This document shows, one piece after another, positions 15,130 to 59,831 of a stretch of DNA of 64,000 nt. The position numbers and the translations under genes are program-made. The DNA lies in contig CALVOX010000001.1 of NCBI GenBank assembly GCA_944350425.1, positions 41,155 through 105,154 on the forward strand, given 5' to 3'. Position 1 is the first letter of the stretch. Each line of letters begins with the position of its first letter. The notes under the pieces are model-generated. The model was not told the DNA's origin. It worked only from the letters and a program-made list of their open reading frames with translations, and ran no database searches. Origin of the DNA: an uncultured Bacilli bacterium. Its GTDB lineage: Bacteria; Bacillota_I; Bacilli_A; RFN20; CAG-826.

Positions 15130-15347
15130 CTATTTGTTTTAAGCGTTGAAGAGGAGTAGTAATCACTTTATAGTTATTTTAGTGAGAGGTGAGAGTGAAA
15201 AACCTTATAACTAACTTGATGAATTCGCCTTGGAGCTTGGTTTGATGAACCCGTTAAACTTTTGCGTAAAAAAGATAAACTAAGAGCAAAGAATTAGGAT
15301 GGTACCACGTTAATTATAACGTTCCTATACACTAATTCTTTTTTATT
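15130..15347 (+). promoter_or_regulatory. T-box riboswitch leader (Phe) with terminator
   Basis: T-box sequence aattaggatggtaccacg (15292-15309). The specifier region contains UUC (…gaattcgcc…). The terminator helix is gaattagga…tcctatacactaattc plus ttttttattt. Confidence 0.8.
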
Positions 15348-23911: not shown

Positions 23912-24352
23912 CTATAATCTAATATAGCGATGAGTTTTAACAACTAAAAGATACGAATAATAAATTGCAGAATTAAATAAAAGAAGTGTTCCAAAAGTTA
24001 GAAAAGCTAAAGATTTAATAAATTCATTTTGACCAAAGATAAAATATAAACCCAAAGCAATTAAAACTAATGAAATAACATTAACTACTATAACAACTAT
24101 TAATGCAAATTTATTAATCTTTCCATCATCTTCAAAAACTAGCGTATATAACATTGAATCTTCTTTTTTAAATGCTTTTATCGAAACAAAAAATTCAGTT
24201 GAAGCAATTAATAAAGCAACAATTAAAGATATTGTGACTAATAGTGAATCTGTATCAAAATGACTTAAATTAAGTCCAAGATAAAGAATATAAAACGGCA
24301 GCTGTAAAATCGAAAAAATTAAAGATAATATACGATAAATTCTAATAGACAT
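23912..24352 (-). CDS. Hypothetical membrane protein
   Basis: 146 aa with 4 predicted TM helices, immediately downstream of the GH13 gene (3-nt gap). Confidence 0.5.
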   Translation of the reverse strand: MSIRIYRILSLIFSILQLPFYILYLGLNLSHFDTDSLLVTISLIVALLIASTEFFVSIKAFKKEDSMLYTLVFEDDGKINKFALIVVIVVNVISLVLIALGLYFIFGQNEFIKSLAFLTFGTLLLFNSAIYYSYLLVVKTHRYIRL

Positions 24353-24354
24353 AT

Positions 24355-25686
24355 TTAATTATTATATTTTTTATTTTCAATATCTGTAGCTTTAAATAAG
24401 AATAATGGTTCTTTTACTCTAATGCTATGATTTTTAATTAAAACTATTTTAGAAGTAAAGTAATCAACATAAGCTCCATCATTTAGTTTTTCATCTCTAA
24501 TTAAAACACCATTATTTGACATAGAAGTTGAAAGATTAAACAAACCATAAGAAGTAGAACCATCTTTATAATGATTAATAATACCTAAATTTCTTCCTTT
24601 TGAAGTTAAAACTTCACTAATTGTTAGATCTAAATTAACCTTATTTTTTTTAAATTCAATTAATTTTTTAATATAGTTAAACCATTCAATATCAATACTT
24701 AAATCTAATTGGTCTTTTTCAAATAAATCAAGATGATGATCAGCTTTAGTTTCTAGACCGTTATAAATAAACATAGGTCCTTTCATAAATACTGGAAAAG
24801 CTGCCAAATTCTTAATTAAAGTTTTATTTTTACTATATTCACATAATCTTCTTTGATCGTGGTTTTCTAATCCTCTAATACGTAAATTATTAGAAGGATT
24901 ATAAGATTCTTCATAATTAAGTAAAACTTTATACATATCTAAATATCTAGATTCTTTAGTGTCTAAATAAGTTCTAAGTTCATTAAAATTATTATATGGA
25001 TAAAGTAAATCAAAACCTAACATATAAAGTTCAGCATCACTTAAAGCGTTAAAGCCAATAGATCTAACATAACTTATGAAACCTGAATCAACCGATTCAC
25101 AAAGTAAAATAGTAGAAGGATATTTTGCATCCAACATCTCTTTTAACTTTTTATAAAAAGAAGAATAAATTAATGAACCGACATCAAATCTAAATCCATC
25201 TACTCCTAAAGAACAATAATATTCGATTACACCTACTAAATAGTTAATTAAATCTTCGTTATTAAAATCTAAATCATAAACATCTGACCAATCGCCAGCT
25301 TTATTTGCAAAATTACCATTTTTATCATGATACATCCGTTCTGGATGTTCATTCATTATTACAGAATCTCTAGAAGTATGATTAAAGACAATATCAATCA
25401 TTATCTTCATGTTTTTTTCATGAGTTTTATTAATTAAAGATTTAAAATCATCAATAGATCCATATTCTGGATTAACTTTATAATAATCTTTAATAGAATA
25501 AGGTGAACCTAATGAACCTTTTCTTCCAACTCTTCCGATTTCATTAATTGGGAGAAGATATAATATATCGCTACCTAACTCTTTAATATAATCTAATTTA
25601 GTTTCTAAAGCATTAAATGTTCCTTCAAGAGTATAGTTTCTTGGAAATACTTGATAAATAATGTTTGTTTTTAATTCAGTTTTCAT
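24355..25686 (-). CDS. Cytoplasmic GH13 alpha-glucosidase/amylase-family enzyme
   Basis: GVDGFRFDV (nucleophile region), LLCES (acid/base), LENHDQ. No signal peptide. Start set at the second ATG (MKTELKTNIIYQVFPRNYT) after aggtaaagg. Confidence 0.8.
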   Translation of the reverse strand: MKTELKTNIIYQVFPRNYTLEGTFNALETKLDYIKELGSDILYLLPINEIGRVGRKGSLGSPYSIKDYYKVNPEYGSIDDFKSLINKTHEKNMKIMIDIVFNHTSRDSVIMNEHPERMYHDKNGNFANKAGDWSDVYDLDFNNEDLINYLVGVIEYYCSLGVDGFRFDVGSLIYSSFYKKLKEMLDAKYPSTILLCESVDSGFISYVRSIGFNALSDAELYMLGFDLLYPYNNFNELRTYLDTKESRYLDMYKVLLNYEESYNPSNNLRIRGLENHDQRRLCEYSKNKTLIKNLAAFPVFMKGPMFIYNGLETKADHHLDLFEKDQLDLSIDIEWFNYIKKLIEFKKNKVNLDLTISEVLTSKGRNLGIINHYKDGSTSYGLFNLSTSMSNNGVLIRDEKLNDGAYVDYFTSKIVLIKNHSIRVKEPLFLFKATDIENKKYNN

Positions 25687-25762
25687 AAATAAATTTACCT
25701 TTACCTTTAAATTTAAGTCAAAAGTCATTATTATATTTATAAGAATTTTATAAAAATATAAA

Positions 25763-25789
25763 TTTTGGTTAAAATTGATTTAACCAAAA
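25763..25789. promoter_or_regulatory. 11-5-11 perfect dyad (candidate operator) in the divergent GH13/malQ1 intergenic region
   Basis: ttttggttaaa-attga-tttaaccaaaa. Confidence 0.35.
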
Positions 25790-25847
25790 TAATAATAATA
25801 AAATTAATATTAATTTCAAGAAGAAAAGCTAGATAAACTGTATTATT

Positions 25848-27521
25848 ATGAATAAAGAAAAAGTAAATAAGAAAATAATTGAAGATTTATATTCAAATGA
25901 AAATATCAATGTAACTTATAATAACGGTTATAATTTTAACATTAATAATTTCACAAATTTTTATAATATATTAAATTTAGAAGAATATAAAAAACATAAG
26001 CAAAGTGGCATTTTACTTCATATTAGTCAATTGCCTTCAAAATATGGAATAGGTAGTTTAGGTAAAGAAGCCTTTAAATTTATTGATTTTTTAAAAGAAA
26101 CAGGTTTTTCTTATTGGGAAATACTTCCAATTTATGATGTTGGATATTTAAATTCCCCATTCCAAGTAATTACCTCAAAAGGATTAAATCATTATTTAAT
26201 TGATATAGAATCTTTAATTGAAGAGAATTTATTAACTTCAAGAGATTTAACTAATATTGATTTTGGAAGTAATCCTAAAAGAGTAGATTTCAACAAACTA
26301 TTTTTATATAAAGACGAAGTTCTTAAAAAAGCTTTTAAAAGATTTGATACCTCAAATCAAGAATTTATTAATTTTATTAATACTACAAATCTATCTTCTT
26401 ATTGTTTATATAAAGTAATTAAAGAAAGAAACGGTTCAAAAGCATGGTTTGATTTTGCTTTAGAAGATCGTTATTTTGATGAAGAAGTTAAATCTCATTA
26501 TATTAGACATTACCAAAAAGAAATCGAATATCAATTCTTTCTTCAATTTATCTTTTTGAAGCAATGGAATAAATTACATGATTATGCAAAAAAACAAAAT
26601 ATTGAAATAATCGGCGATCTACCTCATTTTTTAGGATATGATTCTGATGAAATGTATTTTAACCCAGAACTTTTTACGGTTGATAAAAGATACCAAGTAA
26701 CTTATGTTGCTGGTTATCCTAGTGATAATTTTAAACCTCAAGGTCAAAAATGGGGTTATCCTTTATATGATTGGGATTATATGAAATTAAATCACTACAA
26801 ATGGTGGAGAAGTAGAATTTTAGATGCTTTAAGTTTATTTGATAAAGTAAAACTAAACCATTTTAGAGGATTTTATGAAATATATGCGATTCCTTTTAGA
26901 AGTAAAAGTGCTAAAAGAGGCACTTGGATTAAAGGGCCTGGTTTAGATTTTATTTCTTCTATCTCTGATTTATCTCCTAGATTAATTGCTAGTGCTTTAG
27001 GTAATGATGATATTAAAATAACTAAATTTGTTAAAGATTCGAAGTTAGAAGTAACTAAAACTTTAATACCATCATTATTTGATAATATCGAACAAAGAAC
27101 ATATCCATCAATGGTAGATGAAAATACATATTATTATTTAGGTAATCACGATAATACAACTATTAAAACTAAATTAGATGCTTTATCAATTTTAGAAAAA
27201 GAAGAATTAGTAAATCTAATTAATAGTGAATGTGAAAAACTTAATGTTCCTTTACTAAATAGTCCATATTCTAACTTTGATATATCTTTAAAACTTAATG
27301 AACTTATCTATGCTTCAAAGGCAAATCATGTATCTCTTTTATTATCAAACGTTTTATATTTAGGTAAAGAAGCTAGACTTAATACACCAGGAACTTTAGA
27401 TACTTTAAACTGGACTTACCGTTATTTACAACATGATATTTTTAACGACAATATAAAAAAATATTTATTTAATTTAAATAAGACTTACAAAAGATTAAAT
27501 TATAAAAATTTCAAAGAATAG
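25848..27521 (+). CDS. GH77 4-alpha-glucanotransferase paralog lacking catalytic carboxylates (predicted inactive)
   Basis: Full-length alignment to the downstream MalQ2. VKLNHFRGF replaces RIDHFRGF (D to N), and LIASALGNDD replaces IVAEDLGMMDD (E to S, D to A). The HD motif is kept. It carries an extra ~50-aa N-rich N-terminus. Confidence 0.75.
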   Translation: MNKEKVNKKIIEDLYSNENINVTYNNGYNFNINNFTNFYNILNLEEYKKHKQSGILLHISQLPSKYGIGSLGKEAFKFIDFLKETGFSYWEILPIYDVGYLNSPFQVITSKGLNHYLIDIESLIEENLLTSRDLTNIDFGSNPKRVDFNKLFLYKDEVLKKAFKRFDTSNQEFINFINTTNLSSYCLYKVIKERNGSKAWFDFALEDRYFDEEVKSHYIRHYQKEIEYQFFLQFIFLKQWNKLHDYAKKQNIEIIGDLPHFLGYDSDEMYFNPELFTVDKRYQVTYVAGYPSDNFKPQGQKWGYPLYDWDYMKLNHYKWWRSRILDALSLFDKVKLNHFRGFYEIYAIPFRSKSAKRGTWIKGPGLDFISSISDLSPRLIASALGNDDIKITKFVKDSKLEVTKTLIPSLFDNIEQRTYPSMVDENTYYYLGNHDNTTIKTKLDALSILEKEELVNLINSECEKLNVPLLNSPYSNFDISLKLNELIYASKANHVSLLLSNVLYLGKEARLNTPGTLDTLNWTYRYLQHDIFNDNIKKYLFNLNKTYKRLNYKNFKE

Positions 27522-27705: not shown

Positions 27706-27734
27706 TTGACTTAACAATAATTTGAAAATATAAT
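27706..27734 (+). promoter_or_regulatory. Sigma70-type promoter for malQ2-malEFG-amy-malK
   Basis: TTGACT, 17-nt spacer, TATAAT. Confidence 0.6.
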
Positions 27735-27747
27735 GAAAGCGCTTACA
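27734..27747 (+). promoter_or_regulatory. Catabolite-responsive element (cre) candidate
   Basis: TGAAAGCGCTTACA matches the cre consensus TGWNANCGNTNWCA at every constrained position. It lies immediately downstream of the -10. Confidence 0.5.
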
Positions 27748-27779: not shown

Positions 27780-29303
27780 ATGAAATTAAGAGAGAGTGGA
27801 ATTTTATTAAATATCTCATCATTACCTTCAAAATATGGAATTGGTAATCTTGGTAAAGAAGCATATGAATTTATTGATTTCTTAAGTAAGAGTAAATGCA
27901 ATATTTGGCAAATTTTGCCCCTAAACGTTACTTCCTATGGTGATTCACCATATCAATCTCCATCTAATTATGGTTTAAATTATTACTATATTGATTTAGA
28001 TACATTAATAGATAAAGGTTTATTAAAAGAAGAAGAAATTAAAAATATCGACTTTGGAAGTGATCCTAAAAAAGTTGATTATGGTAAATTATTCAATAAT
28101 CGTCTTAAAGTATTAAAACTTGCATTTTCAAGATTTGATACAAGAAAAGAAGATTTTAAAGATTTCATCATAAAAAATCCTAAGTTTAAAGATTTTGCTT
28201 TATTTATGACAATAAAAGAGAAACAAAATCTTAAACCTTGGTATGAGTGGGATGTTAAGTATCGTAAATATAACACTTTACTTGAAGAAGAAGTAGTAAA
28301 AGAAAACAAAGAAACAATGCTCTTCTACATCTGGACTCAATACGAATTCTTAGATGAATATACTAAATTAAAAGAATATGCTAAATCTAAAAAGATTAAG
28401 ATTATGGGCGACTTACCTATTTATGTAGCGTTTGACTCATTAGAGGTATGGAAATTCCCAAGTCTCTTCCAATTAGATGAAAATAGATTCCCAACTGCAG
28501 TAGCAGGTTGCCCACCAGATTGTTTCTCAGTTGATGGTCAATTATGGGGAAATCCATTATATAATTGGCCATATCATAAAGAAACTGGTTATAAATGGTG
28601 GAATGAAAGAATTGCTAATTGTCTAGATTTATTTGATTATCTTAGAATTGATCACTTTAGAGGATTTAGTGGATATTATTCAATTCCATTTAAAGATAAA
28701 ACTGCTAAAAATGGAAAATGGATAAAAGGTCCAGGAATTGATTTGTTTAAAGATAAATTAAATTACCCTATCGTAGCCGAAGATCTTGGCATGATGGATG
28801 ATGATTTCTATAAGTTCTTTGATAAATGTGGTTATCCAGGTATGAAGATAGTAACACAATGTTTCGATGATGATGATCCGACTAACATTTGGAGACCATC
28901 GAATTATCCATACAACTATTTCTCATATACTGCAACTCATGATTCTCCAACTACTAGACAATTTATTGATGAAAGAACTCCAGAGCAAAAAGAATTAATG
29001 CTCGAGATATTAGAAGATGAATGTAAAAAATTTAGGATTCCATTTATTAAAAGTTTAAGTAACGAACAACTTACTTTAAAAATATGTGAACTTAATTTTG
29101 CTTCTCAATCTAGAGCAGCAATCGTTCCTCTTCAAGACTTATTTGCAATCGGTAAAGAAGGAAGAATGAACTTCCCTTCAACATTATCTACCGACAACTG
29201 GTCTTTCAGAATAACTAAAGAAGCTTTTGAAGCTAAAAAGAAGGAATTAAGTGAAATTCTACTTAGGTGGAATGATAATTATCAAAGAGGCATAGATAAC
29301 TAA
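27780..29303 (+). CDS. malQ: 4-alpha-glucanotransferase (amylomaltase, GH77)
   Basis: LRIDHFRGF, PIVAEDLG and YTATHDS catalytic motifs are all intact. RBS aagga. Confidence 0.9.
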   Translation: MKLRESGILLNISSLPSKYGIGNLGKEAYEFIDFLSKSKCNIWQILPLNVTSYGDSPYQSPSNYGLNYYYIDLDTLIDKGLLKEEEIKNIDFGSDPKKVDYGKLFNNRLKVLKLAFSRFDTRKEDFKDFIIKNPKFKDFALFMTIKEKQNLKPWYEWDVKYRKYNTLLEEEVVKENKETMLFYIWTQYEFLDEYTKLKEYAKSKKIKIMGDLPIYVAFDSLEVWKFPSLFQLDENRFPTAVAGCPPDCFSVDGQLWGNPLYNWPYHKETGYKWWNERIANCLDLFDYLRIDHFRGFSGYYSIPFKDKTAKNGKWIKGPGIDLFKDKLNYPIVAEDLGMMDDDFYKFFDKCGYPGMKIVTQCFDDDDPTNIWRPSNYPYNYFSYTATHDSPTTRQFIDERTPEQKELMLEILEDECKKFRIPFIKSLSNEQLTLKICELNFASQSRAAIVPLQDLFAIGKEGRMNFPSTLSTDNWSFRITKEAFEAKKKELSEILLRWNDNYQRGIDN

Positions 29304-29421: not shown

Positions 29422-30708
29422 ATGAAAAAATTTAAATTCTTAGCCATCTTAGCAGCTGGCGCAATGGTTCTTGGGGGAGGCTTAGCATCTTGTACTCCAA
29501 GTGATAATCCAAATCCTAACCCAAATCCTAACCCAAATCCTAACCCAGAACCAGAAGGTAAAACAATTGATCTTGTTCTTTCAGGTCCAGGCGATGAAGC
29601 CGAACTTGACATGGAATTAATCGAGGACTTTAAAGAGTATCGTAAATCAATTGGTGACCCAAATACCTATAATATCGAAAGAGTTAACCACGGTGCAGAT
29701 AAAGTCGACTCTGAAGTTACTGACTGGACAACCGGACCAGATGTCTATGCATATGCTTCAGATAAAACACAAGGCTTATTCCAAAAAGGCGCTTTAGGTG
29801 TTTTAAGAGGCGATTACGAAACATTCGTTTTAGAAAATAACAGCCAAACTGGTATTGATGCTGCAACATTTAACGAAGATTTATATGGTTTCCCATATAC
29901 TGGTGATAATACATACTACTTAATGTATGATAAATCAGTATTCACAGAAGAAGATGTTCAATCAGTTGAAGGCATTTTGGCTAAATGTGCAGAAACAGGT
30001 ACAACATTTGCTTATAAATTACAAGAAGGTTTCTATGGGCAAGGTGCTATGTTCACTTTTGGTGCTGATTATAATTTAACATTCACTGAAGATGGTCAAA
30101 TCTCCACAATTGAGGCTGACTTTAATGGTGAAGCAGGTGTAAAAGCAGCTAAAGCTATTTATAGTATTGCAACAGATTCAAATTGGATTGATGAATATAT
30201 TGTAGCTGGAACTGATAACACAAAGATTGCTGTAAACGGAACTTGGAGTATTAGTGATGCTAAAGCTTTATTAGGCGATAACTATGGTTGTGCTCCTATG
30301 CCAACTGTTACAGTAGACGGTGATACAAAACCTTTAGGTAACTTTATTGGCGCTAAATTATTTGGCGTTAACCCTCAAAGATCTGGAACAGATCAAGATA
30401 GATTAACCGCTGCTTATAACTTAGCAATGTATCTTTCTGATGCTGATGCACAAGAAAAGAGATTCGACTCAAGAGAAACAGCTCCAAGTAACTTAACAGT
30501 TGCTGCATTAGACAAAGTTACTTCTAACGGAAACGTCCAAACATTAGTTAAACAAAATGAATGGGGTCATGCTCAAACTGTAGTTCCAGGTGAAGCTTGG
30601 AATGCTCCAGGTGTTTTACTTGGTGGAATTAAAGACGGAACAGTTACTTTAGATAATATCGAAGAAGCTTGTGAAGTTTATAATAACAGTATCATTAACT
30701 CTAAATAA
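29422..30708 (+). CDS. malE: Maltodextrin ABC transporter substrate-binding lipoprotein
   Basis: Lipobox LASC after MKKFKFLAILAAGAMVLGGG, then an (NP)n linker. Family-1 SBP core resembling MalE/MdxE. Confidence 0.85.
   Translation: MKKFKFLAILAAGAMVLGGGLASCTPSDNPNPNPNPNPNPNPEPEGKTIDLVLSGPGDEAELDMELIEDFKEYRKSIGDPNTYNIERVNHGADKVDSEVTDWTTGPDVYAYASDKTQGLFQKGALGVLRGDYETFVLENNSQTGIDAATFNEDLYGFPYTGDNTYYLMYDKSVFTEEDVQSVEGILAKCAETGTTFAYKLQEGFYGQGAMFTFGADYNLTFTEDGQISTIEADFNGEAGVKAAKAIYSIATDSNWIDEYIVAGTDNTKIAVNGTWSISDAKALLGDNYGCAPMPTVTVDGDTKPLGNFIGAKLFGVNPQRSGTDQDRLTAAYNLAMYLSDADAQEKRFDSRETAPSNLTVAALDKVTSNGNVQTLVKQNEWGHAQTVVPGEAWNAPGVLLGGIKDGTVTLDNIEEACEVYNNSIINSK
29506..29556 (+). repeat. In-frame tandem repeat encoding (NP)7-EPE linker
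   Basis: aatcctaaccca repeated 3 times, plus flanking aatcca / gaaccagaa units. Confidence 0.7.
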
Positions 30709-30723
30709 TTTATATTACTATAA

Positions 30724-30751
30724 CAAGGCAACTTTTTAGTTGCCTTGTTTC
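30724..30751 (+). terminator. Intercistronic hairpin (partial terminator/attenuator) between malE and malF
   Basis: caaggcaact-tttt-agttgccttg followed by tttcttg. Confidence 0.5.
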
Positions 30752-30772
30752 TTGTTCAAGAAAGGAGCGATT

Positions 30773-32314
30773 ATGTCAAATTTAGAATATTATTCTTTAT
30801 CTAGACCAAAAAGATTCTTTTATAAACTCGGTTCCTTCTTTGTAAACATTCCTCTTGGAATTGGAAGATTTTTTAAAAAACTTCCTAATAAATTAGTTAA
30901 TTTCTTTAAAAAATTTTTCACTCCCCTTGTTAATATTTGGTCATGGTTTTCTAAAGGTGACTTTTTGACCAGGCTTTCATTTGTTGTTATGGGATCGGGT
31001 CAAATCGCCAGACATCAAATAATAAGAGGCGTTTTGAACCTTTTATACGAAATCGTCGCAATCATATTTATAATTTTGGTCGGAGTACCAAGTTTTACTA
31101 AATTGCCATCATTTGGCTATATTTCATCTATACAATATGAAACTAACACACCACCATTTGTTGGCTATATGTATCAAGATGATAGTTTTAAAATTTTGCT
31201 TTATTCAGTTGTAAGCTTAATCGTAATTTTAATACTTGCCTTCCTTTGGTACACAAATATAAGAGATGCATATGAATTGCAAAGAACAAAGGAAATTGGA
31301 AGAAAAACTTCTGATCTACAAACAGTCAAAGGTTTAGTTGGCAAAGATTATCATAAGGTAATGCTTTCTATTCCTACATTAGGCATAGCTATTTTTACAG
31401 TAATTCCTTTAATTTTCATGGTGTTGGTTGCATTTACTAATTTCAATTCAAATCATATGAATCCTAAAGAATTATTTGACTGGGTAGGACTAGGAAATTT
31501 TTCACAATTATTAGGTTTGACAGGAACTAATAATGGAAATCAATTTGCAATGGTTTTCTTACAAATTCTCATTTGGACACTTATTTGGGCTTTCTTTGCA
31601 ACATTCACTAACTATTTTTTAGGAATGATTGTTGCTATCATGATCAATAAAAAAGGCATTAAGCTTAAAAAAATGTGGAGAACAATTTTAATTACAACGA
31701 TTGCAGTTCCACAATTCGTATCTTTACTTTTAATGTCAAAAATGCTTAACACAGATACAGGTGTCGTTAATGCGATTTTAAAAAATGCTGGTTTAATAAC
31801 AGAAAATATTAGATTCTTAACCGATGGTTTACTTGTAAAAGTTACAATCATCCTTGTTAACATGTGGATTGGTATTCCTTATACAATGCTCATGTGCACC
31901 GGTATTCTTATGAATATTCCTGATGATTTGTACGAATCTGCAAAGATCGATGGTGCAAGCCCTTATAAAATGTATATGAAAATTACACTTCCATATATGT
32001 TGTTTGTTACTACGCCATACTTAATTTCTCAATTCGTCGGTAATATCAACAACTTCAATGTTATTTATCTTCTTTCAAGCGGTGGTCCTATCTTCTCAAG
32101 TGTTAATGGTGAAATCATCACTGCACAAGTTTTCGGAGCTGGACAATCAGACTTGCTTATTACATGGTTATATAAAATGTCCATGGGCGAAGTATTTAAA
32201 GACTATGGCGCAGCATCAGTTATCGGAATTGTTGTCTTCGTTATCGTTGCTTTCTTCTCGCTTATTTTCTATGGAAGAAGTAATTCAGTTAAAAATGAGG
32301 AGGATTTCCAATAA
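30773..32314 (+). CDS. malF: Maltodextrin ABC transporter permease (MalF-like)
   Basis: Start at ATG 30773 (MSNLEYY…) after AAAGGAG. EAA-loop region …IDGASPYKMYMKITLP…. Confidence 0.85.
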   Translation: MSNLEYYSLSRPKRFFYKLGSFFVNIPLGIGRFFKKLPNKLVNFFKKFFTPLVNIWSWFSKGDFLTRLSFVVMGSGQIARHQIIRGVLNLLYEIVAIIFIILVGVPSFTKLPSFGYISSIQYETNTPPFVGYMYQDDSFKILLYSVVSLIVILILAFLWYTNIRDAYELQRTKEIGRKTSDLQTVKGLVGKDYHKVMLSIPTLGIAIFTVIPLIFMVLVAFTNFNSNHMNPKELFDWVGLGNFSQLLGLTGTNNGNQFAMVFLQILIWTLIWAFFATFTNYFLGMIVAIMINKKGIKLKKMWRTILITTIAVPQFVSLLLMSKMLNTDTGVVNAILKNAGLITENIRFLTDGLLVKVTIILVNMWIGIPYTMLMCTGILMNIPDDLYESAKIDGASPYKMYMKITLPYMLFVTTPYLISQFVGNINNFNVIYLLSSGGPIFSSVNGEIITAQVFGAGQSDLLITWLYKMSMGEVFKDYGAASVIGIVVFVIVAFFSLIFYGRSNSVKNEEDFQ

Positions 32315-33177
32315 TGTCTGCTAAAGTCGAACGTTATCACAGTAAGAAATTTAAGGAAATTTCTTCAAAAACACTTATTTACATCCTTTTAGTTATCATT
32401 TCGATAATATGGTTAATACCATTTGTTTATTTGGTATTTCAATCATTTGCTCAAAGTTATTCACCTTCAAACTTTATTCCAGCTGCTTGGACATTTGATA
32501 ACTATATTAATTTATTTACGGATATATCTTATCCATTTGGTAGATGGTATTTAAATACACTACTTATTGCTATTATTACCGCAATACTACAAACAGTTTT
32601 TACTTTAATGACTGCTTATGCATTCTCAAGATTAAGATTTAGATCAAGACAAGCATATATGAAATTTATTCTTGTAATCGGTATGTTCCCATCTTTCTTA
32701 GGAATGATTGTTACATATTTCTTATTACAAATGATAGGTTTATCAGCTTCAATATTTGGTCTCATCGTTATTTATGTTGCAGGTTCTGGAATGGGATACT
32801 ACGTTGCTAAAGGTTTCTTTGACACAATTCCAAAGTCATTAGATGAAGCTGCAATGATTGATGGTGCAAACAAAAATACAGTATTCTGGAAAGTTATTTT
32901 ACCTTTAGCAAAACCAATCGTTGTTTACACAGTTCTTATGAGTTTCACTGCTCCATGGGGTGACTATATGATGGCATCATATATTGCGCAAGGAAAACAA
33001 GAACTATTCAATGTTGCTGTTGGTTTGCAACAAATGATGACGAAAGGTAATGATATTAAATACTTCCCTCAATTCTGCGCTGGAGGTGTATTTGTCTCTA
33101 TTGGAATTATGGCTTTATTCTTCTGGTTACAAAAATATTATGTTGAAGGTGTAACAGGAGGAGCTGTTAAGGGTTAA
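32314..33177 (+). CDS. malG: Maltodextrin ABC transporter permease (MalG-like)
   Basis: 6 TM helices; EAA motif LDEAAMIDGANKNTVFWKVILPL. TAATG overlap with malF. Confidence 0.9.
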   Translation: MSAKVERYHSKKFKEISSKTLIYILLVIISIIWLIPFVYLVFQSFAQSYSPSNFIPAAWTFDNYINLFTDISYPFGRWYLNTLLIAIITAILQTVFTLMTAYAFSRLRFRSRQAYMKFILVIGMFPSFLGMIVTYFLLQMIGLSASIFGLIVIYVAGSGMGYYVAKGFFDTIPKSLDEAAMIDGANKNTVFWKVILPLAKPIVVYTVLMSFTAPWGDYMMASYIAQGKQELFNVAVGLQQMMTKGNDIKYFPQFCAGGVFVSIGIMALFFWLQKYYVEGVTGGAVKG

Positions 33178-33181
33178 AAAA

Positions 33182-34801
33182 ATGAAAAAAAGTAAATTAT
33201 TAATTATAACCTCACTTTTGTCTCTATTATCAATTGCATCTTGTACACCAGCAAATCCTTATGATGAAACATATGGCTACAGAATAGAAGAAAACATTGA
33301 TGATGTAACGCCTATTGATGATAACTATCGCAATTATTATGAAATCTTTGTAAGATCTTTCGCAGATTCTGATGGAGATGGAATAGGCGACTTAAATGGT
33401 ATAATAGAAAAATTAGATTATATAGAAGATTTGGAATATACAGGAATATGGTTAATGCCAATAAATCCTTCGCAATCTTATCATAAATATGATGTAGATA
33501 ATTATTATGAAATTGATCCGGACTATGGAACAATTGACGATTTAAAAAATCTAGTATCAATAGCACATGATAAAGGGATTAATGTTATTCTAGATCTTGT
33601 ACTTAACCATTCGTCTTTATACACTGAAGAATTTAAACTAGCAAGCGAAGCTTACAATAAATATATAAAAGGCGAAACATTAAACGAAGATGAACTTAGA
33701 TATTACGATTATTATTCATTTTTCGAAGGACAGGATGATCCTGATGCAAAGGGAAAAACACTATATAAACACCCAATTTATAACTTTTATTACGAAGGTA
33801 ATTTCTCTAGCTCAATGCCTGAATTGAATTTAGATTCACAATATGTAAAAGAAGATATTGAATCAATTGTTAAATACTACATAGATATAGGAATTGACGG
33901 TTTTAGACTCGACGCAGTTTTATATTATTTTATAAATAACACATCAAAAAATGTTGAATTTCTTAATTGGTTTAATTCTTATGTAAAATCGCTTGACGAA
34001 AACGCTTATATCGTAGGCGAAGCTTGGACTAGTGATCAAGTGATAAAACAATACTACGAATCGGGAATAGATTCTTTCTTCTATTTCGATGGATCGACAT
34101 CAAATCCTAATGGATTTTATCTAAACTCAACAAATTTAGATGGCAAACTTGCAAATTCATATTATGAAGGCTTACTAGACCTTATAGATACTTCATCAAA
34201 TGGTATTCCAGCCCCATTTCTAGATAATCATGATATGTCTAGATATGTTAGGGTTAATTCAATTGAAAAAACAAAATTCTATTATGGATTACTTTCAATG
34301 TCTAATGGAACAACATTTACATATTATGGTGATGAAGTTGGAATGGGCGGAACTATTCCACCAGATCAAAACGTAAGAACTTCAATAAGATGGGGTGAAG
34401 ATGATGAGAAATACGATACAGTTCAATTAACAGGTATAACAGCAGAAGTTTATCCTTACGGAACTGTAAAAGAAAATCTGGAAAACTCTAATTCTATCCT
34501 TAATTATTATAAAAAAGCTAATTATTTGAGAAATAAATTTAAATCAATAGCTAGAGGTGAAATATCTTTAGCAGAATTCGATAAAGATAGAGGGCTATTA
34601 ATAATTACTAAGTCTTACCTTGACGAAGAAATAAATATCGCTATTAATTTTAAAGAAAGAGATAACATCATTCTTACATCTAGCGATATAAGTGATAAAG
34701 AAATTGTCGGACAATTAATTGTCGATAACTCTAAATATATCGGTGAATTAAACGATGGAACTATAATTCTTCCACCTTATTCAATAGCGATATTCAAATA
34801 A
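33182..34801 (+). CDS. Lipoprotein GH13 alpha-amylase (surface-anchored)
   Basis: Lipobox IASC. GIDGFRLDAV, VGEAWT and LDNHDMSR catalytic regions. Confidence 0.85.
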   Translation: MKKSKLLIITSLLSLLSIASCTPANPYDETYGYRIEENIDDVTPIDDNYRNYYEIFVRSFADSDGDGIGDLNGIIEKLDYIEDLEYTGIWLMPINPSQSYHKYDVDNYYEIDPDYGTIDDLKNLVSIAHDKGINVILDLVLNHSSLYTEEFKLASEAYNKYIKGETLNEDELRYYDYYSFFEGQDDPDAKGKTLYKHPIYNFYYEGNFSSSMPELNLDSQYVKEDIESIVKYYIDIGIDGFRLDAVLYYFINNTSKNVEFLNWFNSYVKSLDENAYIVGEAWTSDQVIKQYYESGIDSFFYFDGSTSNPNGFYLNSTNLDGKLANSYYEGLLDLIDTSSNGIPAPFLDNHDMSRYVRVNSIEKTKFYYGLLSMSNGTTFTYYGDEVGMGGTIPPDQNVRTSIRWGEDDEKYDTVQLTGITAEVYPYGTVKENLENSNSILNYYKKANYLRNKFKSIARGEISLAEFDKDRGLLIITKSYLDEEINIAINFKERDNIILTSSDISDKEIVGQLIVDNSKYIGELNDGTIILPPYSIAIFK

Positions 34802-34823
34802 ATACCTAATGGAGGATTAAAAA

Positions 34824-37373
34824 ATGGCAAACATTAAATTAGACCACATCTATAAAGTTTATCCTAATGGTGTTAAAGCTGTCTCTGATTTTACAATGGA
34901 CATTAAAGATAAAGAATTCATTGTTTTCGTTGGGCCTTCGGGATGTGGCAAATCAACAACCTTAAGAATGATTGCTGGTCTAGAAGATATTAGCGCTGGC
35001 GAACTTTATATTGACGATAGAATTGTTAATGATGTTGAACCAAAAGATAGAGATATTGCAATGGTTTTCCAAAACTATGCACTTTATCCACACATGACTG
35101 TTTATGAAAATATGGCATTCGGTTTACAACTTAGACACGTTCCAACTGAAGAAATTCATGAAAGAGTCTTATGGGCTGCAAATATCTTGGGTTTAACAGA
35201 TTATTTAGATAGAAAACCTAGAGCAATGTCTGGTGGGCAAAGACAAAGAGTCGCTTTAGGTAGAGCTATCTTAAGAAATCCTAAAGTCATGTTACTTGAT
35301 GAACCACTTTCAAACCTTGATGCTAAACTTAGAGCACAAATGAGAAGTGAAATTGCAAAACTTCATCAAGATTTACAAACTACATTTATTTACGTCACTC
35401 ACGACCAAGTAGAAGCTATGACTCTTGGAACAAGAGTAGTTGTTATGAAACTTGGTGAAATTCAACAAATTGACTCACCAAAGAATTTATATGATTATCC
35501 ACAAAACAAGTTCGTTGCTGGTTTTATTGGAACACCTCAAATGAATTTCTTCCAAGCTACATTGCTTAGAAAAGGTGACCAAGTAGAAATTAATTTTGAA
35601 TGGTCTGATAATAAACTCATGGTTGATGCTAATGAATTAATTAAGGTCCAACCTTATTATCTTGACGGAAAGCATAAAGTCTGGTTTGGTATTAGATGTG
35701 AAGATATTTCATTGCTTGGACCTGGAGATCAAGTTAATCCAGAAGATAACTTCAATGTCAAAATTTCCCATTTCGAAGAACTTGGTAATGAAACATTAAT
35801 TTATGGCGATATTAATATGAATGGCGATGGCTTTAAAGAAACATCAACAAGAATTATTATTAAAGCTTTAAATTCAAATGGTTTAAACATTGGAGACGTT
35901 GTAAAGGCTAAACTTAACTTAGAAAAAGCACACTTCTTTGATATTAATAGTGAAGTATCAATCGTTCCGCGCATACCTACATTAAACGTTATATCTTGTA
36001 AAATTAACGGACATGAATTAACTTTTGATGGAAATACATTAACTTTACCAAAAGTAGTTGAAGTTAAAGAAGGAGATGGACAACTTTATTTACCAATTAA
36101 CGCTTTAAGCATTGATCAAAACGGAAAAGTTAATGCTAAAGTAATTAAAATTGAGCAAGTCGAAGATAAAAAACTTGCTTACTTAAAATTGAATGAAAGA
36201 GTCTTATTCTTGCTCGTTGGAGATGATGTTAAAGTTGGAGATGAAGTTAAACTTAATATTGACATAACTCAAATTACTATCAAAGATGGAGAAGAAGTAT
36301 TAGTTTCAACTTTGAAGAAATATAATGAAATTTCCTCAACATTTGTAAACTTTGTTACAGCAAATACTAATGAAAAGAACAAATACAATCCAATATTAAA
36401 TTCAAGAATCGAAGAAGTTAACAAGTCTTTTGATGAAAAAATTAAAGAAGTTAATGCAAAATATGATGCTTTAATTAAAGAAAATTCTTCAAAAGATTTA
36501 GCAGCAATTAAAGAAGTTAATAATAAGAAGATTGCCGAATTAACTCAAGAAACAAATGCTAAACTTAAAGAACTTGATGCAAATTATAAAAAGAACATTG
36601 CTGAAGTTAAAAAAGAACATAAAGTTAATAAGAAACAAGTCGTTTTAAAAGTTAAAGAAGAGCAAGAAAGAATTAAACGTGAAGAAAATGAATCTTACAA
36701 GAAATTCTTAAAAGTTAACAAAGATAAAGATGTTTATCATAAACGTAAAACCGAACATCAAGATTTTAAAGAAAATTTCCCTAAGGAAAGAGAAAATCTT
36801 ATCAATAAGGCTATAGATGGCGAAGCTTTAAACTTTGAAACTGCTCTTAACGAAATTAAAGCTCCTTATAAGAGAGACAAAAAAATACTTAAAAACAACT
36901 ATAAAACAACTGTTAAAGCACTTAAAGACGAGTACAACATCATTGAGGTATTGAATAAAGAAAGAAATGAGGAACTTTCTCGACTCACAAAACAAAAGAA
37001 AGTAGATTTAGCAAAAGCTAAACAAATCTTCTTCCTTAAAATTAACGGTCACTTATATCAATCGCCGGACACAATTTCTAATAAGATGATTCAAGGTTTA
37101 GGAACTAAAGTATTTGTTAAAGACTTCATCATTGAAATTCCTAATGATAAGATTCGTGTTAGCGATGAAGGATTAAAGGCTACTGTTGAATCTTTCTTAG
37201 ACTATGGTGATAAAAAATTTGTTATTTGTAATGTTAAAGAAGAAGACGGCAGCGAACACGAATTCTATGTCTTAAATGATAAAGAAATTGCCAAAGGAAC
37301 AGAAATTCATTTAACATTTGACTTAATTGATACCCACATTACTGAAAAATCAATGAATCTTAGAATTTATTAA
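34824..37373 (+). CDS. malK: MalK/MsmK-type ABC ATPase with ~480-aa C-terminal extension
   Basis: Walker A GPSGCGKST, signature LSGGQRQRV, Walker B LLDEPLSNLD, and the canonical TOBE-like regulatory domain to about aa 370. Then extra OB-like segments and a K/E-rich coiled-coil (…KEVNAKYDALIKEN…KVKEEQERIKREEN…). Confidence 0.85.
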   Translation: MANIKLDHIYKVYPNGVKAVSDFTMDIKDKEFIVFVGPSGCGKSTTLRMIAGLEDISAGELYIDDRIVNDVEPKDRDIAMVFQNYALYPHMTVYENMAFGLQLRHVPTEEIHERVLWAANILGLTDYLDRKPRAMSGGQRQRVALGRAILRNPKVMLLDEPLSNLDAKLRAQMRSEIAKLHQDLQTTFIYVTHDQVEAMTLGTRVVVMKLGEIQQIDSPKNLYDYPQNKFVAGFIGTPQMNFFQATLLRKGDQVEINFEWSDNKLMVDANELIKVQPYYLDGKHKVWFGIRCEDISLLGPGDQVNPEDNFNVKISHFEELGNETLIYGDINMNGDGFKETSTRIIIKALNSNGLNIGDVVKAKLNLEKAHFFDINSEVSIVPRIPTLNVISCKINGHELTFDGNTLTLPKVVEVKEGDGQLYLPINALSIDQNGKVNAKVIKIEQVEDKKLAYLKLNERVLFLLVGDDVKVGDEVKLNIDITQITIKDGEEVLVSTLKKYNEISSTFVNFVTANTNEKNKYNPILNSRIEEVNKSFDEKIKEVNAKYDALIKENSSKDLAAIKEVNNKKIAELTQETNAKLKELDANYKKNIAEVKKEHKVNKKQVVLKVKEEQERIKREENESYKKFLKVNKDKDVYHKRKTEHQDFKENFPKERENLINKAIDGEALNFETALNEIKAPYKRDKKILKNNYKTTVKALKDEYNIIEVLNKERNEELSRLTKQKKVDLAKAKQIFFLKINGHLYQSPDTISNKMIQGLGTKVFVKDFIIEIPNDKIRVSDEGLKATVESFLDYGDKKFVICNVKEEDGSEHEFYVLNDKEIAKGTEIHLTFDLIDTHITEKSMNLRIY

Positions 37374-59721: not shown

Positions 59722-59831
59722 CATGCGTTGTAACTTCATATTAGCTACAACCGCATTAAAAAGGTTGATAAAATTCAACAAAATTGAATACCTTCAGAGC
59801 GAGTATTATTTAATTAATGGAGGAAACAAAG
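59722..59831 (+). promoter_or_regulatory. Structured 5' leader of rplU (possible L21-leader autoregulatory element)
   Basis: Hairpins gcgttgtaac…ctacaaccgc and attcaa…ttgaat between the promoter and the GGAGG RBS. Confidence 0.3.

What the first reader, a model, noticed from the sequence alone, without database searches (positions are those of the whole stretch)
25848..27521. Tandem GH77 paralog with catalytic nucleophile and acid/base replaced (pseudo-amylomaltase)
Two full-length 4-alpha-glucanotransferase paralogs sit head-to-tail. The downstream copy has the intact GH77 triad motifs (RIDHFRGF, IVAEDLG, THD). The upstream copy has LNHFRGF (Asp to Asn) and IASALG (Glu to Ser, Asp to Ala), but keeps the fold-defining segments and the HD motif. 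It also has an extra Asn-rich ~50-aa N-terminus. A conserved but catalytically dead GH77 suggests a non-enzymatic role such as maltodextrin binding or chaperoning, regulation, or partnering with the active copy.
Basis: partly seen in the sequence, partly recalled or inferred. Interest (0 to 1): 0.7.

Follow-up and report, generated by a model that had tools for sequence, protein, structure and literature searches.

The report
Conserved catalytically dead amylomaltase paralog
Next to a normal maltodextrin-processing enzyme sits a full-length sister copy that has lost the residues needed for catalysis, yet selection has kept it intact across a whole group of uncultured gut bacteria, so it most likely binds starch fragments rather than cutting them, although databases label it as an active enzyme.

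Summary
ORF 25848-27521 (557 aa) is a full-length GH77 protein. Its predicted fold matches solved amylomaltases (TM 0.92). The catalytic nucleophile Asp is Asn337, the acid/base Glu is Ser382 and the next Asp is Ala. The copy 258 nt downstream (27780-29303) has the canonical Arg/Asp/Glu/Asp set.

This is not decay. 55 distinct relatives, down to about 40% identity, form one clade (NJ bootstrap 100/100). None has Asp at the nucleophile position or Glu at the acid/base position. They keep the glucan-contacting residues: Asp249, Phe251, Gln256, Trp258, His294, His394, Asp395, Asn464. dN/dS is 0.15, against 0.06 for the active neighbour. In 15 of 16 loci an intact GH77 lies beside the dead copy. 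In 14 of 16 a GH13_48-like maltogenic amylase does too. None of 72 canonical-only loci has a second GH77 copy or that GH13.

My best reading is a non-catalytic, glucan-binding pseudo-amylomaltase that serves the maltodextrin system as a sensor, buffer or partner. That role is inferred, not shown. It is transcribed apart from the cre-controlled operon. I found no published description of a naturally inactive GH77. I rate it a new variant of a known kind, of moderate interest.

The parts
25848..27521 (+). winA: 557-aa GH77 paralog that lacks the canonical catalytic residues (pseudo-amylomaltase)
   Evidence: ORF. Pfam PF02446 at 365 bits. AF2 model with pLDDT 86 and pTM 0.86. Foldseek best match 6m6t, TM 0.92, rmsd 2.4 A.
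25848..25997 (+). Lineage-specific Asn-rich N-terminal extension (aa 1-50), predicted disordered
   Evidence: pLDDT below 50 for residues 1-5 and 15-48. Present only in the 556-557-aa closest relatives and less conserved than the domain. 14 Asn in 50 residues.
26850..26873 (+). Region II, KLNHFRGF: Lys335 replaces the clan-invariant Arg291, and Asn337 (codon AAC, 26856-26858) replaces the nucleophile Asp293
   Evidence: In the clade the first position is K in 48/55. The nucleophile position is N in 52/55, S in 3/55 and D in 0/55.
26982..27002 (+). Region III, LIASALG: Ser382 replaces the acid/base Glu340, and Ala383 replaces Asp341
   Evidence: In the clade the Glu340 position is S35/N15/A4/D1 and never E. 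Position 341 is variable.
27141..27155 (+). Region IV, GNHDN: His434-Asp435 are kept (His394/Asp395) and Asn433 replaces Thr393
   Evidence: In the clade: H 55/55, D 54/55, and N at position 393 in 52/55.
27706..27747 (+). Promoter-like site TTGACT-17-TATAAT, overlapped by a cre/LacI-type operator ATGAAAGCGCTTACA, immediately upstream of the active copy. It separates the dead gene from the operon's control unit.
   Evidence: This is the only cre-consensus match in the 64-kb window. The site is conserved upstream of the active copy in 8 of 11 loci and is never found upstream of the dead copy.
27780..29303 (+). winB: canonical GH77 4-alpha-glucanotransferase (RIDHFRGF / IVAEDLG / THD), first gene of the transporter operon
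   Evidence: It passes the NCBIfam NF011080 cut-off (511 against 477).
24355..25686 (-). Divergently transcribed cytoplasmic GH13 with its catalytic motifs intact, related to the maltogenic amylases of subfamily GH13_48
   Evidence: PDB 3dhu at E 2e-90 and 4gkl at 3e-53. Subfamily assignment from PMC11239784. Motifs. It is adjacent to the dead GH77 in 14 of 16 loci and absent from the canonical-only loci.
29422..37373 (+). Rest of the maltodextrin operon: solute-binding lipoprotein, two permeases, a GH13 lipoprotein and an 849-aa MalK-like ATPase
   Evidence: The same gene order is found in relatives.

Best explanation
winA is a pseudo-amylomaltase. It is an old GH77 paralog that can no longer run the double-displacement transglycosylation reaction. 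It has no carboxylate nucleophile and no acid/base residue, and the invariant Arg is now Lys. It still has an intact GH77 barrel and the residues that line the alpha-1,4-glucan cleft. It is cytoplasmic (no signal peptide is visible in its N-terminus). It is maintained by selection as part of a three-gene module with a GH13_48-like maltogenic amylase and an active GH77, which heads the maltodextrin ABC-importer operon. I infer that it binds maltodextrins without turning them over. It would then act as an accessory to the pathway, in one of three ways: (a) a sensor or regulatory subunit, (b) a buffer that shields a primer pool of dextrin from the maltogenic amylase so that the active GH77 can still disproportionate maltose, or (c) a non-catalytic partner of one of the two enzymes, in the manner of plant ISA2. 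Shown here: loss of the catalytic residues, retention of fold and cleft residues, purifying selection, clade-wide conservation, and synteny. Inferred only: glucan binding, absence of any activity, and which accessory role applies.
For: The catalytic positions are mapped on solved structures (residue roles from PMC8465469 and PMC7990933).

55 distinct clade members have N/S at the nucleophile position and S/N/A/D at the acid/base position. None has Asp or Glu there, although Asn is one transition from Asp, and the Asn codon alternates between AAC and AAT among loci.

Cleft residues are kept: S57 54/55, P58 53/55, D249 55/55, F251 51/55, Q256 55/55, W258 48/55, H294 55/55, G343 55/55, H394 55/55, D395 54/55, N464 55/55, P466 55/55.

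The dead clade has 106 columns at least 90% conserved, against 109 in the active set.

dN/dS is 0.152 for window versus L001 and 0.134 for L004 versus L010. The active neighbour gives 0.062 and 0.084. Divergence of the dead copy is similar to that of the adjacent functional GH13: 83% against 84.5% identity for window versus L001.

13 full-length within-species variants keep the motifs intact and none is truncated.

The clade is monophyletic with NJ bootstrap 100/100.

The AF2 model is confident and superposes on amylomaltases.

An intact Arg/Asp/Glu/Asp GH77 lies in the same locus in 15 of 16 dead-clade loci (directly downstream, except in L006/L007, where the GH13 gene lies between). A GH13_48-like gene is adjacent in 14 of 16. 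None of 72 canonical-only loci has a second copy.
Against: No binding or activity data exist.

The changes at the catalytic centre are concerted and themselves conserved (Lys-x-Asn, Asn-His-Asp). That could equally mean a new active site rather than a dead one.

The dead gene is not under the cre-type operator that precedes the active gene. It is usually separated from it by 209-365 nt, which argues against an obligate stoichiometric complex with winB.

No dead-active fusion protein appeared among the hits.

One genome carries the dead copy away from the locus (L012). In another it has a frameshift (L013), so it is dispensable in some lineages.

The secondary glucan site (Tyr54/Tyr101) is aromatic in only about half to two thirds of members.
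Confidence: 0.6

Rival explanations
1. winA is a neo-functionalised enzyme. The remodelled centre (Lys335, Asn337, Ser382, Asn433, His434, Asp435) would be a new active or ligand site for a different, possibly anionic, substrate such as a sugar phosphate. It would use chemistry that needs no carboxylate nucleophile.
For: The substitutions are concerted and conserved rather than random: K 48/55, N 52/55 and N393 52/55. Other clade-specific shifts remove carboxylates or add basic residues: D56N, D341 variable, L257->K/R in 51/54, I216H. Asp395, His394 and His294 are strictly kept.
Against: Position 340 is loosely constrained (S/N/A/D) and position 341 is free, which does not look like a new catalytic residue. 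I found no precedent for such chemistry in clan GH-H. I could not check whether residues 56, 216 and 257 face the cleft.
Confidence: 0.2
2. winA is a non-catalytic subunit that forms a hetero-oligomer with the active GH77 (winB) and tunes its stability or chain-length specificity, as ISA2 does for ISA1 in plants.
For: The gene is paired with an active GH77 in 15 of 16 loci, and canonical-only loci have no second copy. ISA2 provides a precedent within the same clan (PMC3958451).
Against: The two genes have separate promoters and a separate operator. No fusions were seen. A partner-type GH77 can occur alone (L090). Linkage to the GH13_48-like gene is equally tight. This is a sub-case of the best explanation, and its probability is counted within it.
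Confidence: 0.2
3. winA is still a working 4-alpha-glucanotransferase that uses other residues, or Asn337 deamidated to Asp, for catalysis.
For: It scores just above the TIGR00217 malQ cut-off (207.9 against 205.65). Public records name clade members 4-alpha-glucanotransferase (HKL72625.1). Asp395 and Asp/Glu213 remain.
Against: Three of the four clan-invariant residues (Arg, Asp, Glu) are replaced. The acid/base position holds Ser, Asn or Ala. It falls below the NF011080 subfamily cut-off (389.6 against 477). From general knowledge of clan GH-H, nucleophile and acid/base mutants lose activity by orders of magnitude.
Confidence: 0.05
4. winA is a decaying duplicate (a young pseudogene) or an assembly artefact.
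For: One relative (L013) carries a frameshift and one (L012) has lost the locus context.
Against: The ORFs are intact in independent assemblies from NCBI, ENA, JGI and Logan. dN/dS is 0.13-0.15. The clade spans down to about 40% identity with 106 highly conserved columns.
Confidence: 0.03

Closest known systems
GH77 amylomaltases / 4-alpha-glucanotransferases of the Thermus type (T. aquaticus 1cwy, A. aeolicus 1tz7, S. agalactiae 6m6t)
   Same: Same family and fold: PF02446 at 365 bits, predicted structure TM 0.92 and rmsd 2.3-2.5 A. It keeps the 250s-loop Asp249/Phe251, Gln256, Trp258, His294, His394-Asp395, and Asn464/Pro466.
   Different: It lacks the nucleophile Asp293 (Asn), the acid/base Glu340 (Ser) and the invariant Arg291 (Lys). 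Thr393 is Asn. It carries a disordered 50-aa N-terminal tail.
Borrelia GH77 amylomaltases, which naturally have Arg->Lys and other substitutions at otherwise invariant positions (Kuchtova & Janecek 2015, cited in PMC8465469; details from my own knowledge)
   Same: They are GH77 members with natural replacement of the clan-invariant Arg by Lys.
   Different: As described, the borrelial enzymes keep the catalytic triad. Here the nucleophile and acid/base residues are also gone, and the protein coexists with a canonical copy.
Plant ISA2, the non-catalytic GH13 isoamylase subunit that partners ISA1
   Same: Same clan (GH-H). It is a full-length paralog with key active-site residues replaced, conserved, and works alongside an active paralog in alpha-glucan metabolism (PMC3958451).
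   Different: It is eukaryotic and belongs to GH13_11. Its hetero-multimer is shown experimentally. For winA no complex is shown, and the genes are in separate transcription units.
Other pseudo-glycosidases that keep a binding cleft: rBAT/4F2hc ectodomains (GH13-like; PMC8537225, seen) and the chitinase-like lectins of GH18 (my own knowledge)
   Same: They show loss of catalytic carboxylates with the fold retained and, for the chi-lectins, retention of the sugar-binding cleft.
   Different: They belong to different families, organisms and cellular roles. None is a bacterial cytoplasmic GH77.
'Group 2' GH77 of related gut Bacilli (P0068, P0082, P0270-P0306)
   Same: They come from the same operon type and the same broad lineage. 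They have lost the invariant Arg, and about 10 of about 48 have Asn or Ser at the nucleophile position. In the NJ tree the four sampled members (P0068, P0070, P0076, P0082) are sister to the dead clade.
   Different: They keep Glu340 and mostly keep Asp293. In the two loci examined (L088, L089) they are the only GH77 in the operon and occupy the position of the active copy.

Membership tests
GH77 (sequence and fold family, clan GH-H) | Significant match to the Glyco_hydro_77 profile over the whole domain | tested here: met
   PF02446 at 365.4 bits (cut-off 25), covering residues 57-528 of 557.
GH77 (sequence and fold family, clan GH-H) | (beta/alpha)8 amylomaltase fold | tested here: met
   AF2 model with pLDDT 86. 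Foldseek matches to 6m6t, 1tz7 and 1cwy at TM 0.92, rmsd 2.3-2.5 A.
Functional 4-alpha-glucanotransferase (EC 2.4.1.25, MalQ) | Catalytic nucleophile Asp (Asp293, Thermus numbering) | tested here: not met
   Asn337. In the clade: N 52, S 3, D 0 of 55.
Functional 4-alpha-glucanotransferase (EC 2.4.1.25, MalQ) | General acid/base Glu (Glu340) | tested here: not met
   Ser382. In the clade: S35/N15/A4/D1, E 0.
Functional 4-alpha-glucanotransferase (EC 2.4.1.25, MalQ) | Clan-invariant Arg two residues before the nucleophile (Arg291) | tested here: not met
   Lys335. In the clade K is found in 48/55 and R in 3/55.
Functional 4-alpha-glucanotransferase (EC 2.4.1.25, MalQ) | Transition-state stabiliser Asp with the preceding His (His394-Asp395) | tested here: met
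   His434-Asp435. In the clade: H 55/55, D 54/55.
Functional 4-alpha-glucanotransferase (EC 2.4.1.25, MalQ) | Curated family score cut-offs | tested here: inconclusive
   TIGR00217 malQ scores 207.9 against a cut-off of 205.65 (a bare pass). NF011080 scores 389.6 against 477 (fail). winB passes both.
Functional 4-alpha-glucanotransferase (EC 2.4.1.25, MalQ) | Disproportionating activity on malto-oligosaccharides | not testable with these tools
   Needs a recombinant-protein assay.
Pseudoenzyme (non-catalytic paralog kept by selection) | Purifying selection and conservation across species despite loss of catalytic residues | tested here: met
   dN/dS 0.13-0.15. Monophyletic clade of 55 sequences down to about 40% identity with 106 columns at least 90% conserved. 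Synonymous turnover of the Asn codon.
Pseudoenzyme (non-catalytic paralog kept by selection) | Retained ligand (alpha-glucan) binding | tested here: inconclusive
   The cleft residues listed in PMC8465469 are mostly conserved, but binding itself was not measured.
ISA2-type non-catalytic subunit of an active paralog | Physical hetero-oligomer with the active paralog | not testable with these tools
   Only co-location is shown (15 of 16 loci). The separate promoter and operator and the absence of fusions give no support.

The most novel reading that the evidence does not exclude
The site is not dead but re-tooled. The clade-wide loss of up to four carboxylates around subsite -1/+1 (Asp56, Asp293, Glu340, Asp341), together with the conserved Lys335, Asn337, Asn433-His434-Asp435 and a basic residue at position 257, would create a pocket for an anionic sugar such as glucose-1-phosphate or maltose-1-phosphate. 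The protein would then either sense that metabolite to control the maltodextrin system, or catalyse a glucosyl transfer that needs no nucleophile (glycosynthase-like or front-face). That chemistry has not been described for a natural clan GH-H protein.
Probability: 0.08. Interest if true: 0.85.

Novelty: new variant of a known kind. Interest (0 to 1): 0.55.

Why it matters
As far as the searchable literature shows, GH77 is treated as a family with a single enzymatic specificity and an invariant catalytic machinery. The only noted oddity is the Borrelia group. Three things follow if this clade is what it appears to be.

1. It would be a bacterial counterpart to the plant non-catalytic starch-metabolism proteins (ISA2, and from my own knowledge BAM4/BAM9). 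It is a conserved, selection-maintained GH77 clade without nucleophile or acid/base, always embedded in a maltodextrin locus.
2. It is a concrete annotation problem. The protein just clears the malQ equivalog threshold, and clade members are deposited as '4-alpha-glucanotransferase'. CAZyme counts for these gut Bacilli therefore overstate their enzymatic capacity.
3. It offers a naturally evolved substrate-trapping scaffold for alpha-1,4-glucans.

The stakes are moderate. It refines understanding of starch use by uncultured gut bacteria. It does not resolve a long-standing question.

Tried and rejected
1. Profile search of the 50%-identity representative library. Only one representative of the dead clade (P0037) was among the best 150, so it gave no extra diversity. 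It did show that nucleophile loss is rare in GH77 generally (4 of 150).
It returned only 8 dead-clade loci and no genome of the window's own species, so the organism is named only as an uncultured gut Bacilli/'Mollicutes'-type bacterium. The one named relative is Candidatus Onthovivens, at 49% identity.
3. dN/dS for distant pairs is unusable because dS is saturated (above 1). Only window/L001 and L004/L010 are informative.
4. The NJ tree does not resolve where the dead clade came from. It is not sister to the partner clade (0/100). Its attachment to the divergent 'group 2' may be long-branch attraction.
5. The palindrome upstream of winA (25762-25790) looked like a candidate operator. It is conserved only in the nearest relative, so I set it aside.
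6. I considered modelling a winA+winB complex by translating across both ORFs, which are in the same frame. The spacer has 7 stop codons and no multimer tool is available, so I did not try.
7. Literature searches for an inactive or pseudo GH77 found nothing relevant.
8. I rejected the pseudogene and assembly-artefact readings.
Full report
**What is there**

The window is about 25% G+C. It carries a T-box and an L21 leader typical of Bacillota.

ORF 25848-27521 (+, 557 aa, here winA) and ORF 27780-29303 (+, 507 aa, winB) are both full-length GH77 proteins: Pfam PF02446 at 365 and 502 bits. They are 39% identical to each other.

HMMER alignments to solved amylomaltases (1tz7, 6m6t, 2x1i), and a family alignment anchored on the Thermus brockianus chain, map the catalytic centre. 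Residue roles come from PMC8465469. The covalent intermediate on Asp295 of the S. agalactiae enzyme comes from PMC7990933.

| Thermus position | Role | winA | winB |
|---|---|---|---|
| Arg291 | clan-invariant Arg | Lys335 | Arg |
| Asp293 | nucleophile | Asn337 (codon AAC) | Asp |
| Glu340 | acid/base | Ser382 | Glu |
| Asp341 | cleft residue | Ala383 | Asp |
| Thr393 | cleft residue | Asn433 | Thr |
| His394-Asp395 | transition-state stabiliser pair | His434-Asp435 | His-Asp |

It missed the Arg->Lys and Thr->Asn changes.

The Asn-rich N-terminal 50 residues exist only in the closest relatives. They are poorly conserved and are modelled as disordered.

**It is a conserved clade, not a decaying gene**

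A search of the 5.8-billion-protein collection found 47 clusters at 90% identity, from 99% down to 41% identity to winA. All of them have Asn (rarely Ser) at the nucleophile position, and none has Glu at the acid/base position. From the 48th hit onward almost all sequences have the canonical Arg/Asp/Glu/Asp set.

- Adding sequences from the fetched loci gives 55 distinct dead-type proteins. At the nucleophile position they have N 52, S 3, D 0. At the acid/base position they have S 35, N 15, A 4, D 1, E 0. Lys replaces Arg291 in 48 and Asn replaces Thr393 in 52.
- The Asn codon alternates between AAC and AAT among loci and is never GAY, although Asp is one transition away.
- The clade is monophyletic in 100 of 100 NJ bootstraps.
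- It has as many highly conserved columns as the active enzymes: 106 against 109 at 90% or more.
- For the two pairs with unsaturated dS, dN/dS is 0.152 and 0.134. The adjacent active copy gives 0.062 and 0.084.
- Its divergence matches that of the neighbouring, evidently functional GH13: 83% against 84.5% identity for window versus L001.
- Thirteen full-length within-species variants differ by six residues or fewer and keep all motifs.

**What is kept and what is changed**

Take the residues listed for the Thermus active-site cleft in PMC8465469. The dead clade keeps Ser57, Pro58, Asp249 (subsite +2), Phe251, Gln256, Trp258, His294, Leu342, Gly343, His394, Asp395, Asn464 and Pro466 at 82-100%.

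The changes are concentrated at the reaction centre: positions 291, 293, 340, 341 and 393, and half of Tyr59->Phe. There are a few further clade-specific shifts: Asp56->Asn, Ile216->His, Leu257->Lys/Arg, Trp226->Tyr.

The AlphaFold model is confident (pLDDT 86, pTM 0.86). It superposes on amylomaltase structures at TM 0.92 and 2.3-2.5 A.

An intact glucan cleft around a disarmed centre is the pattern seen in other pseudo-glycosidases. This is the basis for inferring binding without turnover. Binding itself is not shown.

**Genomic context**

- In 15 of 16 loci carrying a dead-type gene, an intact GH77 lies in the same locus. It is directly downstream except in L006/L007, where the GH13 gene lies between them.
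- In 14 of 16 loci a cytoplasmic GH13 lies next to the dead gene. In the window it is divergently transcribed (24355-25686). Its best PDB matches are the maltogenic amylases 3dhu and 4gkl of the newly defined subfamily GH13_48.
- None of 72 loci with only a canonical GH77 has a second copy or that GH13.
- The active gene heads an operon: solute-binding lipoprotein, two permeases, a GH13 lipoprotein and an 849-aa MalK-like ATPase.
- Between the dead and active genes lies a strong promoter-like site (TTGACT-17-TATAAT, 27706-27734). It is overlapped by the only cre-consensus match in the window (ATGAAAGCGCTTACA, 27733-27747).
- That operator is conserved before the active gene in 8 of 11 loci and is never found before the dead gene.

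So the dead gene is a separate transcription unit that escapes the operon's catabolite-type control. That suits a sensor or accessory protein better than an obligate stoichiometric subunit.

There are exceptions:
- One genome has the dead gene elsewhere, between truA and pyk (L012).
- One has a frameshift in it (L013).
- A partner-type active GH77 can stand alone (L090).

**Mechanism**

The best-supported reading (0.6) is a cytoplasmic, non-catalytic alpha-1,4-glucan-binding protein that assists the maltodextrin pathway. The data cannot tell which of three accessory roles applies:

- a sensor or regulatory protein;
- a buffer that preserves primer dextrins from the maltogenic amylase, so that the active GH77 can still use maltose (amylomaltases need a primer longer than maltose; my own knowledge of E. 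coli MalQ);
- an ISA2-like partner (PMC3958451).

The main rival (0.2) is that the concerted and conserved Lys-x-Asn / Asn-His-Asp centre, together with the loss of several carboxylates, is a new site for a different and perhaps anionic ligand. Residual canonical activity (0.05) and pseudogene decay (0.03) are unlikely.

**Comparison with what is known, and novelty**

winA is a member of GH77 by sequence and fold. It fails three of the four residue tests that define a working clan GH-H transglycosylase.

It barely clears the TIGR00217 malQ cut-off (207.9 against 205.65) and fails NF011080. Clade members are publicly named 4-alpha-glucanotransferase, for example HKL72625.1 from Candidatus Onthovivens.

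Full-text searches found no description of a naturally inactive GH77. The known oddity is the Borrelia group with Arg->Lys (PMC8465469).

Non-catalytic relatives are known elsewhere in the clan: ISA2 and rBAT/4F2hc. This is therefore a new variant of a known kind, of moderate interest.

**A related finding**

A second divergent GH77 group from the same broad lineage ('group 2') has lost Arg291 almost throughout. It has lost the nucleophile in roughly 10 of 48 clusters, while keeping Glu340. In the two loci examined (L088, L089) it is the only GH77 in the same type of operon. The catalytic centre of GH77 seems unusually expendable in these bacteria. That is consistent with a GH77 role that does not depend on catalysis.

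Noticed in passing
window 34824-37373 (+): The MalK-like ABC ATPase is 849 aa. Residues 1-377 match MalK/UgpC. They are followed by a roughly 470-aa Lys/Glu-rich extension that matches no family. The same 843-849-aa form closes the operon in every related locus, including those with 'group 2' GH77; the extension is about 30% identical in L088 and L089.
   Followed up: partly
L088 4976-6493; L089 3297-4808; proteins P0068-P0070, P0074, P0076, P0082, P0270-P0306: This is a second atypical GH77 group. The clan-invariant Arg291 is replaced by Ile, Thr, Val, Ser, Phe or Met in nearly all members. The nucleophile Asp is Asn or Ser in about 10 of 48. Glu340 is kept and the motif is 'THDC'. In the two loci examined it is the sole GH77 and sits at the head of the same transporter operon. 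In the NJ tree the four sampled members (P0068, P0070, P0076, P0082) are sister to the dead clade.
   Followed up: partly
window 27706-27747 (+): A cre/LacI-type operator ATGAAAGCGCTTACA overlaps the -10 box of a near-consensus promoter in front of the active GH77. It is the only cre-consensus match in 64 kb and is conserved in 8 of 11 related loci. No LacI-family regulator gene was seen in the locus.
   Followed up: partly
window 25762-25790: A perfect 12-bp inverted repeat, ATTTTGGTTAAA-N5-TTTAACCAAAAT, lies between the divergent GH13 and the dead GH77. The nearest relative (L001) has a compensated version (ATTTTGTTTA-N3-TAAACAAAAT). More distant loci have none.
   Followed up: partly
window 24355-25728 (-): The cytoplasmic GH13 is a GH13_48-like maltogenic amylase (3dhu at E 2e-90). 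Its real start is probably the ATG at 25686 (MKTELK...), as in its orthologues, rather than the upstream ATG at 25728 given by the ORF list. A conserved 146-aa membrane protein with no family match (23912-24352) follows it.
   Followed up: partly
L013 about 5900-7434: In the human-gut MAG UMGS238 the dead-type GH77 has a one-base frameshift near its N-terminus and the most divergent motifs of the clade (KVNHFMGF / LIANSTG / ESHDY). This is either real decay in that species or an assembly error.
   Followed up: no
L012 5992-7506: This dead-type GH77 lies away from any maltodextrin locus, between a tRNA pseudouridine synthase gene and pyruvate kinase/phosphofructokinase genes. No active GH77 or GH13_48-like gene lies within 6 kb.
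   Followed up: partly
window 29422-30708 (+): The maltodextrin solute-binding lipoprotein has a (Pro-Asn)8 linker directly after the lipobox cysteine.
   Followed up: no
window 15137-15329 and 59739-59816: A T-box leader (93.3 bits, at the family gathering score of 93) and a ribosomal protein L21 leader. Both are ordinary Bacillota regulatory RNAs.
   Followed up: no
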